A stretch of DNA of 23,030 bases from a virus. Below the pieces are notes generated by a model. That model did not search any database. It saw only the letters and a program-made list of their open reading frames with translations, and was not told the DNA's origin. Below, piece by piece: positions 632 to 23,030 of the stretch (positions are counted from its first letter, which is position 1; every line of letters starts with the position of its first letter). The position numbers and the translations under genes were made by a program. Location of the stretch: UHGV virus genome UHGV-0139916; one strand, written 5' to 3'.

Positions 632-2800
<2,169 letters not shown>

Positions 2801-17078: not shown

Positions 17079-17573
17079 TTATTTTATAGTTTTTATGAAT
17101 TCTTTATTAAATCCCTTCGCTTCTCCGGGGTATCTTCCGAAGACAATTTTTATAAAAACAGAAAAAATAAAGATAGCAAAGCTTAACAACAATTGCAGTA
17201 TCATTGGAACCCAAAGAACTACAGGCTCTATATTCATGAAACCAAATATTCTTCCGGCGATCATGGCGAAGTACCACACTGTTATCAGCAAACTTAGTGG
17301 CATATGAATTACTGATATTACCAATCCAAGAGCATCAGTAATTCTGTTTTCAAATTTTTCAGGGGAAAACTTTTCTTTAAGGTAATTCAGTGCGCAGGCC
17401 TCATTCTCTGGATTTTCAGCATTTTTCCCTATAGCAATAGAAATCTCAGATATCCTTGATTCAATTCTTTTACGTTTAATAAAACTAGAAAAAAAGAACC
17501 ACGCAATCTGCAACCCTATCCCCAGAAATAGAGTTGCGGCAACTAGCACAGCGTAACTCATAGAATCAGACAC
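17079..17573 (-). CDS. AT-rich integral membrane protein (about 160-164 aa, 3 predicted TM helices); candidate superinfection-exclusion protein at the P22 sieA position
   Basis: Minus-strand ORF. AAGGAGG lies 5 nt upstream of an in-frame GTG (plus 17571-17573); ATG at 17561 is the alternative start. Three hydrophobic segments ([21 protein letters not shown]; [26 protein letters not shown]; [28 protein letters not shown]). The SieA analogy is positional only. Confidence 0.6.
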
Positions 17574-17603
17574 ACCAACCTCCTTAGTTTTGCGCAGGAT
17601 ACC

Positions 17604-17969
17604 ATGAAAAAAGTTAACATTGGAAACGTACCAAAGATGCTCGTTCCGCTCTTTGAGAGCGGTACAATTGTGTTTTGTAGAGACTTTCCAGAATGGCAAC
17701 GCCTGCATCAAAAACTTGGCGTTGACGTGCATGACTCGGACGCCAACGGAGCGTCTCATACAATGAGTAGCGAGAATGGTGTTTTGCATGTGATAGGCGT
17801 GTTCAATGGCAAACTATCTACTATTGCCCATGAGTGCGCTCACATGGCATTCGATATCTGCTCAAGGGTAGGTGTTGATGTTGAACCAGGAAGAGCCAAC
17901 GAGACTTACTGCTACTTAATGAGCAGGCTTGTTGAGTTCTGCGAGCGACATATCAAAAAGCCGGAGTGA
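17604..17969 (+). CDS. hypothetical protein (121 aa) with an HExxH motif ([11 protein letters not shown]); possible small zincin-like metalloprotein
   Basis: ORF divergent from the membrane protein, weak AGGA RBS. The single HECAH motif is followed by acidic residues. No family confidently recognised. Confidence 0.5.
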
Positions 17970-18931: not shown

Positions 18932-21430
18932 ATGCCTAATATAACTCCAAATGTTGTGATAGGTATGCCGTCGCAACTCTTCACAATGGCTAGTTCTTTT
19001 AAAACCGTAGCAAATGGAAAAATTTATATCGGTAAGATTGACACAGATCCGCTAAATCCAGAAAACCAGATTCCAGTATATCTGGAACGAGAAGATGGTA
19101 CTTATGTTCAGGTGCCACAGCCAATCGTTATCAATGCTGCTGGATACCCGGTATACAACGGACAGATTTCCAAGTTCGTAACTGTGCAAGGTCATTCTAT
19201 GGCTGTTTATGATGCGTATGGAGCGCAGCAGTTCTATTTTCCTAACGTACTGAAGTATGACCCGGATCAGCTACGGCAGCAATTAGAAGACCCGGATGGT
19301 GCTAAAAAATATTCCGAATTGCAGATTGCACGATGGCGTGATGAAACAGATCCACGTGGCTGGGGAGCAAAAGGTGATGGCATTGCGGATGATACACAGG
19401 CATTTGAACAACTGGAAGATTATGTTACGTCTATGGTTGTTGATATGCGAGGTAAAACTTATTTTACCTCCAGAACGTTTTTCAGGAATACCTATATTAA
19501 CGGGAAATGGTTGGTTGGAGGGAAAGTCATTCCTGTTAATGGTGAACTAGTTACAAGCAAGCGACCTGCATGGGACATTAATGCCATTGGACATGAGTCT
19601 AATGCCGCTATACGGTTTATACCAATTGCTAATGGTCGCGGACAGATAAGAACATTGCAAACTTTTGCATATGATCCTGTAAGCAGAGCTTATTATTCCA
19701 ATCACAATACAGAAATAGATGGAAACCCTACTACTGTTTCTGTCTGGAATAAATATTCTGCTGATTCAAAAATTAAAAATACATCTTCTGATTTTATGCT
19801 TCCTGAGGACAGGCTGGGTCATCAGGGAATAGCGGTACAGAATATAGATAATACGATTAAGTTATGGACTACAGCACCAGATACACCGGCAGGCTCTACT
19901 GCCCATACTGACTTTGATTTTTCTGTAGGTGGTTCACATGGGGTTGTTAGATTTTCCTGGAGGAGCAACTCCGAGGGGGAAATAGATTCTCCTGAAATGT
20001 TTAGGGTTGTAGAAGGAAATCGTACAGCGGGTAGTTCAACTACTCCGACTATTACATTAGACGGAAAATGGATGATTATCCGTTTCACCGACAATGGCGA
20101 ATACAATAAGCAAACGTTTCGTGTATTTTCCACTGATATTTTTGATAAACCCGGTGATTATTCCGCCCTGTGTACTCATGAGTTTACTCTTCAACTTTCA
20201 CAAGTCGGTGGTGATGAAACAACATCACTTAATGGATTTTGTTCTGATGGAGCACATCTGTATATGTATTGTGGAAATACTAAGTTTGGGCAGACTCAAT
20301 ATTTATCAAGTTGTGATCTGTTGGGGAATGATGTGCAGAAAGCCATTTCTAATTTGGGTGATACGGATTTACCTAGAATTATTGGCTCTACCCCTACCTT
20401 CCGCGAGTCAGAAGGGATGCATTTTGTTGATTACGATGGCGTTCTTTATCCATCGGTAACAATAGTATCTGAACATTCTGATGTTATGGGGGCAACCAGA
20501 CGTACCATTCTGATTTATGCGCTTGGTGCAGGAGATAAAAGAACGCTATCTCTACCATCTAAAGAAATATGTATCTCTGATAATCCAGAGGCGGTTCCTC
20601 ATGTAATTTATTCAGATAATACAACCTGGGAACAAAACTCACCTATAAAAGCACTAAAGTTCAACAACGAGCAAGGAACCGGTTTGCTTTATGAATGGCA
20701 GAGAAAAGGCGTTGGTTATTTTCAGATGTATATGAGTACCTCTAATGTAGCATTAATGGCTGCGAATGGGGCTGATTTACATCTAGGAAGTAATAATGTC
20801 TGGAGATGGAAAGTAAGTCCAAATGGTCACTGGCATCCTTATCTGGATAATTCTTACAGTGTTGGTGTACCAGATAACAGGCCAACTCAGATTTATGCTG
20901 TTTCAGGCTCAATAAACACCTCAGATGGTAGGGAAAAAAGCGACCCGCTAACAACGAGTGAACTCAGTCTGAATATGTCCCCTGGTTATGAAGGTGATGC
21001 AATTTTGGATGCATGGGGAGATATCAGGATCGTAGCTTTTCGCTGGCTTGAGGCTATCAGGGAAAAGGGAGATGGTGCCCGCTGGCATTTTGGTGTCATA
21101 GCACAACAGGTGCGAGATGCTTTCCTCGCTCATGGGATTGATGGGACCCGGTTTGGCCTTCTCTGTTACGATGAATGGGATGATAAATACGAGCCAGTGA
21201 TGGCGGTCAGGACGATTACTGAAGTTGTGGATGGTGTCGAAATTGAGAAGGAAGAAGAATACGAAACAGAAGAGCGAACTCTGGTACGCAAGGCCGGAAA
21301 TAGGTGGGGTATCCGTGCTGACCAGTGCTTATGGCTTGAGTCTGCTTATTTGCGTAGAAGAATCGAAAAAATAGAGTCACGTCTTGCAGCGATTGAAAAA
21401 AAACTTTTTGACAATGAATGCAAATTATAA
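18932..21430 (+). CDS. tailspike (832 aa): P22 gp9-type head-binding N-terminus, AT-rich beta-helix-type receptor-binding/glycanase domain, C-terminal intramolecular chaperone (S74-type) domain
   Basis: From ATG 18932, [50 protein letters not shown]...[13 protein letters not shown]...NVLKYDPDQ aligns with the P22 gp9 head-binding domain as recalled. [15 protein letters not shown] motif typical of pectate-lyase-like beta-helix proteins follows. SDGREK at 20921-20938 matches the endosialidase-type autocleavage motif. Confidence 0.9.
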
Positions 21431-21573
21431 TTCACAGGCAGGGGCGCATATATGTTAAAATATGGTTTGTAACTTGATTTGTTAGATAAGATATGGCTAT
21501 TGATAGTTTTAATTATATCCCATATGGGATGACTACTTTTTACTTTTAATACGAGTGTTTTATCTCTGTATGA

Positions 21574-21615
21574 ACATCGCCATGTTGGATAGTTGATCGT
21601 TCAACATGGCGATGT
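21574..21615. terminator. 14-bp perfect inverted repeat between convergent tailspike and glycosyltransferase genes (candidate bidirectional terminator)
   Basis: ACATCGCCATGTTG (21574-21587), a 14-nt loop, then CAACATGGCGATGT (21602-21615), lying between the two convergent stop codons. Confidence 0.45.
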
Positions 21616-21659
21616 ATAGTAAAAATGTTTTTATAAGAGGATTGATTGTTTTTTATTTA

Positions 21660-22793
21660 TTATTTGTTAAGAGCTAAGACATCTTTTCTGAAATTTTCAT
21701 GATCTCCATCCAGAAGAAATTGTGCAAGGGATTTGAATTTGTTATAAATCAAGTCAAAATTAATAAGGTCTGAATGTGCAGCTAATGACTTATACATCAT
21801 TTTGAAAAAAAATCTTTTATCATTGTCTGGCACTTTTTTGTTTTTTTCAATGGCAGCTAGATGTTCAATGCAAATAACAACCCAAGCACTAAACATCTTT
21901 ACTTTTTCATTGGTTTGTTTTTTGGATATTAAAATGTAATTTAATCCGCATTGTAAAACAAAAATTCTATTTTCTACTGGGAAACTAACTTTAGAAAGAT
22001 GTTGTTGATCGTGCCCGTTAAGAATATAATACTCCTTATCTGATAAAACTGAAACTGTATTAGATACGGTTAATGCATGACATGAAAAAATCATGTCTTC
22101 GTAAACAGGTATTGATGGGTTGAATAAAACCCCATTATTAATAAGCAATTCTCGCTTAAATAACTTGAAAATTTTCAGTGATCTGAATAAATGATTTTTG
22201 ATAATATCTGCTTTGTTAGCATTTTTTCTGAATGCCCGCACGGGTACTCCTCGCCCTGTAGATGATGCTTGCTTAAAATATACAATATCGCTATTATTTT
22301 TATCTGCAATATGCAGCCCATCATAAAGTAACTCTGAATGAATTGCATCATCTGAATCTAGAAAGAAAACATAACGTCCTTTGGCTGCTTTTATTCCTTC
22401 ATTGCGTGGAGCTGAAGCATTTCCGGAGGGGATTTCCCTGCGAATTACACGCCGGTTTATATCCGGTGCAATAAAATACTCAATTGCTGCAACACTTTTA
22501 TCTGTTGAACCATCATCAATAAAAATCACTTCAAATCTGTTTTTATCTAGCGTTTGTGAATTAATAGACTTAATACATTCAATAATTAAGTTTTCTCTGT
22601 TATGAACAGGTATTATAATTGAAATGTCAAACTTATTATTTGAATCAATAGTATGTATAACATTTTTTATTTTATATAAGGCTGAATGGATGGCTATATC
22701 TAAAATAGCTTCAGATATAATGTTTTCTTTTTTAATGTTGCCTTTTATGTTAAAATATAAACAATTAGTACGAAGAACAAAATCCACGCTCAT
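21660..22793 (-). CDS. family-2 (GT-A) glycosyltransferase (377 aa from ATG 22793), AT-rich
   Basis: Motifs SIIIPVHNRENLIIECIKSINSQT, FIDDGSTDKS and FFLDSDD (DXD-type). No C-terminal TM segments, so not GtrB-like. The ATG abuts a tetranucleotide repeat and there is no Shine-Dalgarno sequence. Confidence 0.85.
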   Translation of the reverse strand: MSVDFVLRTNCLYFNIKGNIKKENIISEAILDIAIHSALYKIKNVIHTIDSNNKFDISIIIPVHNRENLIIECIKSINSQTLDKNRFEVIFIDDGSTDKSVAAIEYFIAPDINRRVIRREIPSGNASAPRNEGIKAAKGRYVFFLDSDDAIHSELLYDGLHIADKNNSDIVYFKQASSTGRGVPVRAFRKNANKADIIKNHLFRSLKIFKLFKRELLINNGVLFNPSIPVYEDMIFSCHALTVSNTVSVLSDKEYYILNGHDQQHLSKVSFPVENRIFVLQCGLNYILISKKQTNEKVKMFSAWVVICIEHLAAIEKNKKVPDNDKRFFFKMMYKSLAAHSDLINFDLIYNKFKSLAQFLLDGDHENFRKDVLALNK

Positions 22794-22980
22794 GGCTGGC
22801 TGGCTGGCTGGCTGGCCGGCTGGCTGTGAAATCTAATGCAAATTTTACCCCTTTATATTCGAAGTCAATAACGAAGCAGTTCTCATTGTATAACCATGTT
22901 TTTTTTATGTGATCACGCAGTGTTGTTTTCTCAAAGAACTCAACTATATTTTCAGAAATAGCAGTAATATCAGTTTTCAT
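22765..22980 (-). CDS. 5' reading-frame segment (71 aa) that runs through the repeat tract and stops 9 codons later; probable out-of-frame N-terminal part of the glycosyltransferase gene
   Basis: ATG at 22980 with GAGGT 6 nt upstream. Translation ...DFTASRPASQPASHERGFCSSY, where ASRPASQPAS is encoded by the repeat. Its frame is offset from the glycosyltransferase ORF so that removing one 4-nt unit would fuse them. Confidence 0.4.
   Translation of the reverse strand: MKTDITAISENIVEFFEKTTLRDHIKKTWLYNENCFVIDFEYKGVKFALDFTASRPASQPASHERGFCSSY
22794..22825. repeat. tetranucleotide repeat tract (GGCT)5-GGCC-(GGCT)2 on the plus strand, i.e. (AGCC)n on the coding strand
   Basis: Direct reading of 22794-22825: eight tandem 4-nt units, one of them a GGCC variant, ending immediately 5' of the glycosyltransferase ATG on the minus strand. 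Confidence 0.95.
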
Positions 22981-23030
22981 TGTACAACCTCTATTGTTAG
23001 CAATGTTTATTGGTATTCAAAAATAAGGCG

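What the first reader, a model, noticed from the sequence alone, without database searches (positions are those of the whole stretch)
21660..22980. Candidate slipped-strand phase-variable glycosyltransferase next to the tailspike gene
A (GGCT)5-GGCC-(GGCT)2 tract at 22794-22825 separates a well-initiated 5' ORF (ATG 22980, GAGGT RBS) from a family-2 glycosyltransferase ORF whose ATG (22793) touches the repeat and has no RBS. The two frames are offset so that losing one 4-nt unit, or gaining two, gives a single ORF of about 438 aa; with eight units the 5' ORF stops nine codons past the repeat. This is the architecture of repeat-mediated contingency genes known from Haemophilus and Neisseria glycosyltransferases. 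It is not how enterobacterial phage glycan-modification operons are known to switch (the gtr operons use Dam/OxyR). The gene sits where P22 carries its O-antigen conversion genes.
Basis: partly seen in the sequence, partly recalled or inferred. Interest (0 to 1): 0.85.

Follow-up and report, generated by a model that had tools for sequence, protein, structure and literature searches.

The report
Phage-borne repeat-switched sugar transferase gene
A prophage of E. coli carries, next to its tailspike gene, a sugar-adding enzyme gene split by a run of four-letter DNA repeats whose copy number changes very easily, so that the enzyme is switched on and off at random, much like the known neuO capsule-modifying gene of the related phage CUS-3.

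Summary
On the minus strand, (AGCC)2-GGCC-(AGCC)5 at 22794-22825 separates a 5' ORF (ATG 22980) from a family-2 glycosyltransferase ORF (22793-21660). Seven or ten units would give one 438- or 442-aa protein.

Homologues without repeats are 425-455 aa and contain the 5' ORF as their N-terminal domain. In 38 related loci the tract has 3-81 units and 9 are in frame. Contigs encoding the identical enzyme carry 5-81 units. E. coli B derivatives carry 7, 10, 21, 34, 35 or 45. Published >2000x sequencing of E. coli B REL1206 cultures found a 4-nt indel in this tract (ECB_01992) at 19-21%. Both halves are under purifying selection.

The novelty claim is overstated. CUS-3, this phage's close relative, carries the repeat-switched neuO in the same tailspike-att slot.

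New here:
- The enzyme resembles TarS/TarP.
- A conserved 5' "switch" module is joined to three divergent enzyme bodies.
- The module occurs in P22-like and P2-like prophages, with a degenerate copy in a rare capsule locus.

The window's allele is OFF, with a short, interrupted tract. The sugar acceptor is unproven.

The parts
22987..22991 (-). Shine-Dalgarno-like GAGGT, 6 nt upstream of ATG 22980
   Evidence: Read directly from the sequence. The same upstream sequence is present in all window-type loci.
22826..22980 (-). Conserved 5' module. It comprises codons 1-52 of the enzyme and forms the first part of a small N-terminal beta domain (helix plus strands 1-3).
   Evidence: It is 82-99.5% identical between alleles whose enzyme bodies are only 62-69% identical. 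dN/dS is 0.04-0.08. It aligns with the N-termini of repeat-free homologues. Secondary structure comes from the AF2 model of the 77%-identical P0002.
22794..22825 (-). Tetranucleotide tract (AGCC)2-GGCC-(AGCC)5: 8 units with a longest pure run of 5. In all three sense frames it encodes the cyclic peptide SQPA/ASQP/PASQ and contains no stop codon.
   Evidence: The homologous position holds 3-81 units in related loci. The GGCC interruption is private to this window, since locus L038 has a pure (AGCC)8.
22765..22980 (-). 5' ORF as it reads in the present (OFF, +1) phase: 71 aa, ending eight codons past the tract.
21660..22793 (-). Glycosyltransferase body. It comprises the rest of the N-terminal domain, the GT-A catalytic domain and a C-terminal helical region. 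It is 377 aa if read from ATG 22793.
   Evidence: PF00535 E 7e-31. The closest solved relatives are TarS, TarP and RmlT. There is no transmembrane segment (maximum Kyte-Doolittle-19 score 1.41). dN/dS is 0.08-0.2. GC content is 31.7% against 48.6% for the rest of the phage.
22236..22622 (-). Match to the Pfam Glycos_transf_2 domain (residues 58-186 of the 377-aa ORF). It includes the DSDD (DXD) motif at 22347-22358.
   Evidence: D207, S208, D209 and D210 are invariant in alignment A2.
21574..21615 (.). 14-bp inverted repeat (ACATCGCCATGTTG / CAACATGGCGATGT) with a 14-nt loop, lying between the convergent tailspike and glycosyltransferase genes. It is a candidate bidirectional terminator.
   Evidence: The simple terminator scan did not call it, so this role is inferred.
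18932..21430 (+). Tailspike gene, with a P22-type head-binding domain and a C-terminal S74 chaperone domain. The ORF is open from 18839, but most gene calls start at 18932. It is always linked to this enzyme allele.
   Evidence: Pfam PF09008 and PF13884. The protein is 99.5-100% identical in all contigs that carry the identical enzyme.

Best explanation
This is a phage-borne contingency gene. A single gene encodes a soluble glycosyltransferase of about 440 aa. It has a small N-terminal beta domain, a GT-A catalytic domain related to TarS/TarP/RmlT, and a helical C-terminal region.

An (AGCC)n tract is inserted at the codons for a beta-hairpin turn of the N-terminal domain. Slipped-strand mispairing during replication adds or removes 4-nt units. 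One copy-number class in three (n = 7, 10, 13, 16... in this allele) puts ATG 22980 in frame with the enzyme body. That phase gives the full-length enzyme carrying a variable (ASQP)n loop. The other two classes end translation at or just after the tract.

The window's copy has 8 units and is in an OFF phase. Its tract is short and interrupted, so it should switch more slowly than the 15-80-unit alleles seen elsewhere.

What is shown:
- the anatomy of the locus;
- the copy-number polymorphism;
- within-culture instability of the homologous E. coli B locus;
- purifying selection on both halves of the gene;
- the existence of full-length in-frame alleles.

What is inferred:
- The enzyme decorates a cytoplasmically assembled surface polymer before export. 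For this allele the likely target is a ribitol-phosphate-containing group 2 capsule, which would also be the receptor of the linked tailspike.
- Switching therefore varies phage receptor and antigen structure within a lysogen population, as neuO does for the K1 capsule.
For: Anatomy.

The N-terminal domain is part of the enzyme.
- Repeat-free homologues of 425-455 aa cover 92-98% of the fused protein.
- They share the motif W.Y..C.V.DF.Y..V.FA.DF before the position of the tract and V.R after it.
- In the AF2 model of the 77%-identical P0002 (pLDDT 92.5), the degenerate tract remnant ANQT (residues 46-49) sits at the turn between strands 38-47 and 50-57.

Hypervariability.
- 38 complete related loci have 23 different copy numbers from 3 to 81, and 9 are in frame at 429-513 aa.
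- Among contigs with the identical enzyme, n is 5, 6, 8, 8, 14, 16 (ON, 450 aa), 17, 20, 21 and 81, with 11 in a partial contig.
- Isolates CFSAN061763 and CFSAN061768, from the same source with near-identical chromosome sizes, have 8 and 7 units.
- The E. coli B lineage has 7, 10, 21, 34, 35 and 45 units.

Within-culture variation. A 4-nt indel in ECB_01992 was found at 19-21% in two control cultures sequenced at >2000x, and at 32-34% in 8 of 26 populations (PMC7750951). The tag ECB_01992 maps to ECB_RS23820, the 5' ORF annotated (PMC12147273).

Selection. dN/dS is 0.04-0.08 for the 5' module and 0.08-0.2 for the body. The body ORF is intact at 373-378 codons in every complete locus.

Precedent. 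CUS-3 has int, then a neuO repeat region with 19 copies of AAGACTC, then the tailspike. The window is 95.8% identical to CUS-3 over 51% of its length. neuO rules are taken.

Enzyme class. TarS E 3e-38 and TarP E 1.5e-33 by sequence. By fold, E is about 1e-24 and TM-score 0.79-0.85 normalised to the target. No transmembrane segment was found.

Target inference.
- Among 5426 complete genomes, the window's tailspike occurs only in AST215.
- AST215 is one of only two genomes with a kps region 2 encoding an IspD+SDR enzyme (CDP-ribitol-synthase type), a protein annotated as TagF-like in OZ547176.1, and an enzyme whose intact form (P0002) is 77% identical to the fused protein.
Against: - No phenotype, protein or glycan data exist for any allele, and the acceptor is unknown.
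- E. coli B and C carry related alleles but were not found to have that capsule locus.
- The window's tract has only 8 units with a GGCC interruption, so its own switching rate may be low.
- ON alleles are a minority: 9 of 38 overall, 1 of 10 for the window type and 0 of 4 for the C type. This also fits a gene that is mostly dispensable.
- Many copy numbers come from assemblies. Some are short-read, two had N gaps in the tract, and one has a 1-nt insertion. Individual values may therefore be wrong. The E. coli B entries are not independent of each other.
- The promoter lies outside the window and is only a consensus match in a related locus.
- An internal start could give some truncated enzyme in OFF phases. 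Candidates are ATG 22793 here and a GTG preceded by AGGTG in the B-type allele.
Confidence: 0.78

Rival explanations
1. The enzyme is translated on its own from ATG 22793 in every phase. The tract and 5' ORF act only as a leader, or modulate translation by coupling. The repeat would then tune expression or add an optional N-terminal extension rather than switch the gene on and off.
For: - The ATG abuts the tract in this allele, and annotation pipelines call two genes.
- In the n%3==0 phase of this allele the 5' ORF ends in a TGA that overlaps the ATG (ATGA), a classic coupling arrangement.
- The B-type linker AGGTGTGAATGTG contains an SD-like AGGTG 5 nt before a GTG.
- Most natural alleles are out of frame.
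Against: - There is no Shine-Dalgarno sequence before ATG 22793.
- The product would lack the helix and the first three strands of a five-stranded domain that is conserved in repeat-free homologues.
- The 5' module is under strong purifying selection as protein (dN/dS 0.04-0.08). That is unexpected for a mere leader.
- In the window's own phase the 5' ORF runs 26 nt past the ATG before its stop codon, so there is no ATGA overlap.
Confidence: 0.12
2. The locus is a decaying moron. It is a frameshifted pseudogene that contains a neutral, unstable microsatellite, with no adaptive switching.
For: - 29 of 38 alleles are out of frame.
- The capsule-locus copy in AST215 has a degenerate tract and a premature TAG at codon 18.
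- Experimental-evolution papers treat the REL606 indel as non-adaptive noise.
Against: - Apart from tract phase, no complete locus has a second disabling mutation. The body ORF is intact at 373-378 codons in three divergent lineages.
- dN/dS is well below 1 for both parts.
- The 24% of alleles in frame is close to the 33% expected for a freely switching tract and to the 34% reported for neuO.
- Tracts of 45-81 units are maintained, rather than collapsing or accumulating interruptions.
Confidence: 0.08
3. The copy-number differences are sequencing or assembly artefacts and the tract is stable in vivo.
For: - Two contigs have N gaps inside the tract.
- One nanopore-era assembly has a 1-nt insertion in the tract.
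- Long tracts exceed short-read length.
Against: - The differences are exact multiples of 4 nt in otherwise identical flanks.
- They are seen across Sanger-era, PacBio and hybrid complete genomes and span 3-81 units.
- Independent laboratories report the 4-nt indel at intermediate frequency at >2000x depth and in single evolved clones.
Confidence: 0.02

Closest known systems
neuO of prophage CUS-3 (E. coli K1), the 'mobile contingency locus' (Deszo et al. 2005, cited in PMC13001214 and PMC3046976)
   Same: - It is carried by a P22-like prophage that is 95.8% identical to this window over half its length.
- It occupies the same cargo slot between the tailspike and the att/int end.
- It has a repeat in the 5' coding region whose unit length is not divisible by 3.
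- It is ON at every third copy number, and 2-93 copies are seen in nature, against 3-81 here.
- In-frame repeats are translated into a variable peptide that the enzyme tolerates.
- The enzyme acts in the cytoplasm on a group 2 capsule polymer that is also the receptor of the phage's tailspike.
   Different: - The unit is 7 nt (AAGACTC) rather than 4 nt (AGCC).
- The enzyme is a left-handed beta-helix O-acetyltransferase rather than a GT2 glycosyltransferase.
- The neuO repeat starts 2 nt after the start codon. Here it follows 52 conserved codons and falls inside a folded domain, at a hairpin turn.
- neuO is co-directional with the tailspike, whereas this gene is convergent with it.
- A dependence of activity on repeat number is proven for NeuO and untested here.
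Tetranucleotide-repeat LOS glycosyltransferase genes of Haemophilus influenzae (lic2A, lgtC, lex2A) and homopolymer-switched lgt genes of Neisseria (own knowledge; review PMC2651432 appeared in the searches)
   Same: A tetranucleotide tract in the 5' coding region of a surface-glycan glycosyltransferase, with translational ON/OFF switching by slipped-strand mispairing. AGCC itself is a known contingency unit in Neisseria mod genes (PMC2667262).
   Different: - Those genes are chromosomal genes of small-genome mucosal pathogens, not phage cargo in E. coli.
- They belong to other glycosyltransferase families.
- Several of them have alternative start codons giving two expressing phases. Here only one frame enters the tract.
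ECB_01992 / ECB_RS23820 of E. coli B REL606
   Same: It is the same gene family (the B-type allele), with the same 5' module and the same tract position. It is already reported as a hypermutable 'seven-copy four-base repeat'.
   Different: - It lies in a P2-like prophage remnant beside the tail-fibre gene rather than in a P22-like prophage.
- Its enzyme body is about 67% identical at the DNA level.
- The literature calls it a gene of unknown function. In the papers I could search it has not been linked to a split glycosyltransferase or to phase variation.
TarP, TarS (Staphylococcus aureus) and RmlT (Listeria)
   Same: These are the closest solved relatives of the catalytic part, by sequence (E 3e-38 to 3e-24) and by fold. 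They are soluble cytoplasmic GT-A enzymes that decorate poly-ribitol-phosphate polymers before export. TarP is also prophage-encoded and alters phage and immune recognition (own knowledge).
   Different: - They are Gram-positive wall teichoic acid enzymes.
- None is known to be switched by a repeat tract.
- Their oligomerisation domains are C-terminal, whereas this family has a small N-terminal beta domain.
- Identity is only about 25-27%.
gtrABC O-antigen glucosylation operons of P22, SfV and similar phages, with Dam/OxyR phase variation (own knowledge; PMC3688519 appeared in the searches)
   Same: They are phage cargo in the tailspike-att slot that modifies the phage's own receptor glycan, and they are phase-variable.
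   Different: - They are three-gene systems that act in the periplasm through a bactoprenol-linked sugar and membrane proteins.
- The switch is epigenetic and acts on the promoter.
- Here there is one soluble enzyme and a genetic, translational switch.

Membership tests
Simple-sequence-repeat contingency locus (translational slipped-strand phase variation) | Perfect or near-perfect tandem repeat, with a unit length not divisible by 3, inside the 5' coding region | tested here: met
   There are 8 units of 4 nt at 22794-22825, after codon 52.
Simple-sequence-repeat contingency locus (translational slipped-strand phase variation) | Copy number differs among otherwise near-identical sequences | tested here: met
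   Copy number is 5-81 units among contigs with the identical enzyme and tailspike. It is 7-45 within the E. coli B lineage. Overall it is 3-81 in 38 loci.
Simple-sequence-repeat contingency locus (translational slipped-strand phase variation) | Length heterogeneity within a single culture of the strain that carries it | not testable with these tools
   No reads are available for the window's source. For the homologous REL606-lineage locus, the literature reports a 4-nt indel at 19-21% in cultures sequenced at >2000x (locus mapping).
Simple-sequence-repeat contingency locus (translational slipped-strand phase variation) | One phase gives a full-length protein collinear with repeat-free relatives, and the other phases truncate | tested here: met
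   Seven or ten units give 438 or 442 aa. This protein is collinear with 425-455-aa homologues. Only one upstream frame enters the tract. Natural ON alleles are 429-513 aa.
Simple-sequence-repeat contingency locus (translational slipped-strand phase variation) | Reversible, heritable switching of a phenotype | not testable with these tools
   This needs wet-lab work.
Mobile contingency locus of the neuO/CUS-3 type | Carried as cargo of a temperate phage next to the receptor-binding protein gene | tested here: met
   The gene lies between the tailspike and the prophage end at lambda attB. CUS-3 has neuO in the same slot. The B-type allele lies beside a P2-like tail-fibre gene.
Mobile contingency locus of the neuO/CUS-3 type | Enzyme homologous to NeuO (hexapeptide-repeat O-acetyltransferase) | tested here: not met
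   The Pfam hits are GT2 families only. The closest structures are TarS, TarP and RmlT. The gene works like neuO but is not a member of its protein family.
Mobile contingency locus of the neuO/CUS-3 type | Modifies the surface polysaccharide that the phage's own tailspike recognises | not testable with these tools
   The evidence is circumstantial only. The tailspike and a rare ribitol-phosphate-type capsule locus that carries a homologous enzyme co-occur in strain AST215.
Glycosyltransferase family 2, GT-A fold, TarS/TarP-like polymer decorators | PF00535 domain above the gathering score, with a DXD motif | tested here: met
   The score is 107.8 bits against a cut-off of 23.3. DSDD is invariant in the alignment.
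Glycosyltransferase family 2, GT-A fold, TarS/TarP-like polymer decorators | Fold superposes on TarS/TarP beyond the nucleotide-binding core | tested here: met
   The model of the 77%-identical P0002 gives Foldseek E about 1e-24 and a target-normalised TM-score of 0.79-0.85 over about 330 columns. The model is of a homologue, not of the window protein itself.
Glycosyltransferase family 2, GT-A fold, TarS/TarP-like polymer decorators | Acceptor is a polyol-phosphate polymer | not testable with these tools
   This is inferred only. A homologue sits in a kps region 2 with an IspD+SDR enzyme and a TagF-like annotation.
GtrABC O-antigen conversion operon with Dam/OxyR switch | Three genes: gtrA flippase, gtrB with C-terminal membrane helices, and gtrC | tested here: not met
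   A single ORF lies between the tailspike and the window end. No hydrophobic 19-mer scores above 1.41. PHROG hits named 'GtrB-like' cover only the GT-A core.
GtrABC O-antigen conversion operon with Dam/OxyR switch | GATC pairs and OxyR sites in the promoter region | not tested
   The promoter region lies beyond the end of the window.

The most novel reading that the evidence does not exclude
The conserved 5' module plus the AGCC tract may be a portable switch cassette. Recombination at or beside the tract would have joined it to at least three divergent TarS/TarP-like enzyme bodies. It would have carried them between P22-like prophages, P2-like prophages and a chromosomal capsule locus, always beside the receptor-binding protein gene.

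On this reading E. coli has a family of tetranucleotide-switched surface-glycan decorators that set phage receptor and antigen state stochastically. E. coli B (ECB_01992) would be an unnoticed laboratory model of it.

As in NeuO, the very long in-frame tracts (45-66 units, or 60-88 extra residues in a hairpin loop) might also tune enzyme activity rather than only switch it.
Probability: 0.4. Interest if true: 0.75.

Novelty: new member of a known kind. Interest (0 to 1): 0.6.

Why it matters
Repeat-driven contingency genes are regarded as a speciality of small-genome mucosal pathogens. In E. coli, neuO is the only such case that turned up in my searches.

This locus would be a second, independent case, with three differences:
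- It involves a different enzyme class, a glycosyltransferase.
- It occurs in two unrelated phage types.
- It occurs in common laboratory strains, E. coli B and C.

It would also explain a recurrent "hypermutable gene of unknown function" in REL606 evolution experiments.

It gives a testable route to stochastic variation of capsule or LPS structure, and so of phage sensitivity and antigenicity. Finally, it shows that phages can move a ready-made switch together with their receptor-binding gene.

Tried and rejected
- **Phage records.** Megablast of 21400-23030 against 50,697 phage records found nothing. tblastn found only distant GT-A cores in Listeria and Staphylococcus phages, including tarP. 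The gene is therefore absent from deposited phage genomes and seen only in prophages.
- **Reference genomes.** An exact 22-nt flank-plus-tract pattern found no match in one-genome-per-species references. I did not use the second scan.
- **Literature.** Searches for tetranucleotide, AGCC, prophage and glycosyltransferase terms in E. coli found no description of this gene as phase-variable. Tenaillon et al. 2016 is not held, and PMC7750951 has no supplement held.
- **Phase bias.** I first suspected one, because the first three window-type alleles and the first three C-type alleles all had n%3==2. With more loci the window type shows all three phases, so I dropped the idea. The C type (0 of 4 ON) remains too small a sample to judge.
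- **Circular permutation.** The small beta domain may sit at the C-terminus in Campylobacter and Psychrobacter homologues. This rests on weak matches only (E 0.015-0.09) and is left as a note.
- **AST215 dN/dS.** The values for the 5' module in AST215 are unreliable, because that copy has an in-frame stop and aligned badly. I ignored them.
- **Promoters and terminators.** The scan inside the window gave nothing above shuffled expectation. The real promoter must lie beyond base 23030.
Full report
**What is in the sequence**

On the minus strand the region reads as follows:
- GAGGT at 22991-22987, then a 6-nt spacer, then ATG 22980;
- 52 codons of 5' ORF;
- the tract AGCC AGCC GGCC AGCC AGCC AGCC AGCC AGCC at 22825-22794;
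- ATG 22793, followed by an open frame of 377 codons to a stop at 21660-21662.

The 377-aa product matches Pfam Glycos_transf_2 (E 7e-31). The tract is the only tetranucleotide array in the window. Its expected count in shuffled sequence is zero.

The two ATGs are 187 nt apart, so the frames are offset by one. Deleting one unit gives a 438-aa ORF and adding two gives 442 aa. Only the ATG 22980 frame enters the tract from an upstream start. The other two frames are closed 7 and 27 nt upstream of the tract. In every sense frame the tract encodes the same cyclic peptide (SQPA/ASQP/PASQ) and has no stop codon.

**Setting**

The window is the late region of a P22-like (Lederbergvirus) prophage of Escherichia. 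It is 95.8% identical to CUS-3 and phiv205-1 over about half its length. The similarity ends inside the tailspike gene.

The tailspike has a P22 head-binding domain and an S74 chaperone domain. The glycosyltransferase gene is convergent with it, and a 14-bp inverted repeat lies between them. The gene has 31.7% GC against 48.6% for the rest of the phage.

Contigs carrying the identical enzyme show the prophage end about 770 bp beyond the 5' ORF, at the lambda attB core beside ybhB-bioA. The gene therefore occupies the cargo slot between the tailspike and att.

**Is the 5' ORF part of the enzyme?**

Yes.
- A search with the virtual 438-aa protein found full-length relatives of 425-455 aa covering 92-98% of it. 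They include proteins of Leclercia sp. W6 and many metagenomic sequences that have no repeat.
- In the alignment these share W.Y..C.V.DF.Y..V.FA.DF before the tract position and V.R after it.
- An AlphaFold2 model was made of the closest full-length relative, P0002 (77% identical). It has pLDDT 92.5.
- The model shows a helix and five strands, then a long helix, then the GT-A domain from residue 101.
- The remnant of the tract (ANQT, residues 46-49) is the turn between strands 38-47 and 50-57.

The repeat is therefore an insertion in a hairpin loop of a real domain. The present two-ORF state is a frameshift.

**Does the tract vary?**

The 5' module plus AGCC tract recurs in E. coli genomes, viral contigs and metagenomes.

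- In 38 complete loci there are 23 different copy numbers, from 3 to 81. Nine loci are in frame and encode 429-513 aa.
- Contigs that encode the very same 377-aa enzyme next to the very same tailspike carry 5, 6, 8, 14, 16 (in frame, 450 aa), 17, 20, 21 and 81 units. A partial contig carries 11.
- One of these contigs has a pure (AGCC)8, so the GGCC in the window is a private change.
- CFSAN061763 and CFSAN061768, two isolates from the same source with near-identical chromosome sizes, differ by one unit (8 and 7).
- Within the E. coli B lineage the numbers are 7 (REL606), 10 (AS19), 21 (ATCC 11303) and 35 (B).
- Six drug-resistant derivatives of that B stock have 35, 35, 35, 34, 34 and 45. The 21- and 45-unit alleles are annotated as single 1362- and 1458-bp genes.

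- Two REL1206 control cultures sequenced at >2000x carried a 4-nt indel in ECB_01992 at 19% and 21%. Eight of 26 evolved populations carried it at 32-34%. The authors ascribed this to "seven four-nucleotide repeats" (PMC7750951; preprint).
- PMC12147273 equates ECB_01992 with ECB_RS23820. That is the 5' ORF annotated.
- Another paper calls the gene's function unknown.

**Is it a decaying pseudogene?**

This is unlikely.
- Apart from tract phase, every complete locus has an intact body of 373-378 codons.
- Between alleles, dN/dS is 0.04-0.08 for the 51 codons before the tract and 0.08-0.2 for the body.
- The share of in-frame alleles (24%) is near the one-third expected for free switching. It is also near the 34% reported for neuO.

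**A mosaic switch**

The 205 nt upstream of the tract are 82-99.5% identical between alleles whose bodies are only 62-69% identical. Window against E. coli C is 99.5% for the upstream part and 62% for the body. The drop in identity begins at the tract.

The module occurs in three settings:
- in P22-like prophages, namely this window and E. coli C and GMF054 at argW;
- in a P2-like prophage beside the tail-fibre gene in E. coli B and many other strains;
- in degenerate, in-frame form (TANQTVLN) in region 2 of a group 2 capsule locus in strains AST215 and OZ547176.1.

In AST215 a 129-nt fragment annotated as a tail-fibre assembly protein gene lies about 900 bp from the enzyme gene. That AST215 copy also has a TAG at codon 18.

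**What the enzyme probably does**

- The catalytic part is closest to S. aureus TarS (E 3e-38), to the prophage enzyme TarP (E 1.5e-33) and to Listeria RmlT (RmlT identified through).
- The model superposes on these with Foldseek E about 1e-24.
- These are soluble cytoplasmic enzymes that add a sugar to poly-ribitol-phosphate before export. The window protein has no membrane segment.
- The capsule locus that holds the homologue encodes an IspD+SDR fusion of the CDP-ribitol-synthase type. It also encodes a protein annotated as a CDP-glycerol glycerophosphotransferase family member in OZ547176.1.
- That region 2 occurs in only 2 of 5426 complete genomes.
- The window's tailspike occurs in only one of them, AST215. 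There it is on a prophage that has no glycosyltransferase.

I infer that this phage infects hosts with that rare teichoic-acid-like capsule, and that its enzyme decorates the same polymer. This rests on a single co-occurrence and is unproven. The acceptors of the B-type and C-type enzymes are unknown.

**Comparison with what is known**

The mechanism is that of classical repeat contingency genes. The closest precedent is neuO of CUS-3.
- The CUS-3 record shows int, then a neuO repeat region with 19 copies of AAGACTC, then the tailspike.
- neuO is ON at multiples of three, has 2-93 copies in nature, and translates its repeats into a tolerated variable peptide.

The differences from neuO are:
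- a 4-nt unit;
- a glycosyltransferase rather than an acetyltransferase;
- a repeat inside a folded domain, after 52 conserved codons;
- spread over two phage types and several enzyme bodies.

It is not a gtr operon: it is a single soluble protein with no gtrA or gtrC.

**Verdict**

It is a new member of a known kind, not a new kind.

The window's own copy is OFF. Its short, interrupted tract should switch less often than the long tracts seen elsewhere.

Interest is moderate to high, for two reasons. It adds a second type of phage-borne repeat switch in E. coli. It also assigns a likely role to a well-known hypermutable locus of E. coli B.

Noticed in passing
window 913-2714 (minus strand): An IS21-family element lies between the Rz lysis gene (81-380) and the terminase genes. 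It has istA (1692-2714) and an istB that is split into two ORFs (1408-1695 and 913-1356), so istB looks interrupted.
   Followed up: partly
L035 about 1998-2012, and the flanks of L031-L040: The prophage carrying the identical enzyme ends at the lambda attB core (ttagtataaaaaagc) beside ybhB-bioA-bioB. This P22-like phage therefore uses the lambda attachment site.
   Followed up: partly
L035 2585-2625 (beyond the window's end, about 150-190 nt upstream of ATG 22980): About three tandem copies of AACAATAACCAGCGA lie upstream of the 5' ORF, downstream of a strong promoter-like site (TTCACA-17-TATAAT at L035 2499-2527). They might be a regulatory element.
   Followed up: no
L041 (AST215 2671327-2673816) and L002 (AST215 kps locus): AST215 is the only one of 5426 complete E. 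coli genomes with this tailspike (98.3% aa identity). It is one of only two with a rare capsule region 2 containing the homologous enzyme. The AST215 prophage itself has no glycosyltransferase between its tailspike and intS.
   Followed up: partly
L002 10057-10185: A 129-nt fragment annotated as a tail-fibre assembly protein gene lies about 900 bp from the capsule-locus glycosyltransferase. This suggests the enzyme gene entered the capsule locus from a phage.
   Followed up: no
L003 9844-10044, L029 3752-4234, L042 1446-1688: Long tracts produce spurious annotations. These are antisense 'hypothetical proteins' made of GWLA repeats, and a sense 'PT domain-containing protein'.
   Followed up: yes
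L045 (NZ_OZ001727.1): The tract reads (AGCC)13-C-(AGCC)20. The single extra C is either a sequencing error or a real phase-changing interruption.
   Followed up: no
window 22790-22793, with L031, L034 and L037: In this allele, copy numbers divisible by 3 make the 5' ORF end in a TGA that overlaps the enzyme's ATG (ATGA). This could allow termination-reinitiation and a third, intermediate expression state.
   Followed up: no
proteins P0028, P0054, P0065 (Psychrobacter, Campylobacter): More distant homologues lack the N-terminal beta domain. They have a C-terminal extension with a similar motif (W.F....V.DF......AFD). This may be a domain permutation, but the similarity is weak (E 0.015).
   Followed up: partly
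window 17079-17789 (minus strand): A 236-aa ORF with no Pfam match lies between the DNA-injection genes and the tailspike region, on the opposite strand.
   Followed up: no
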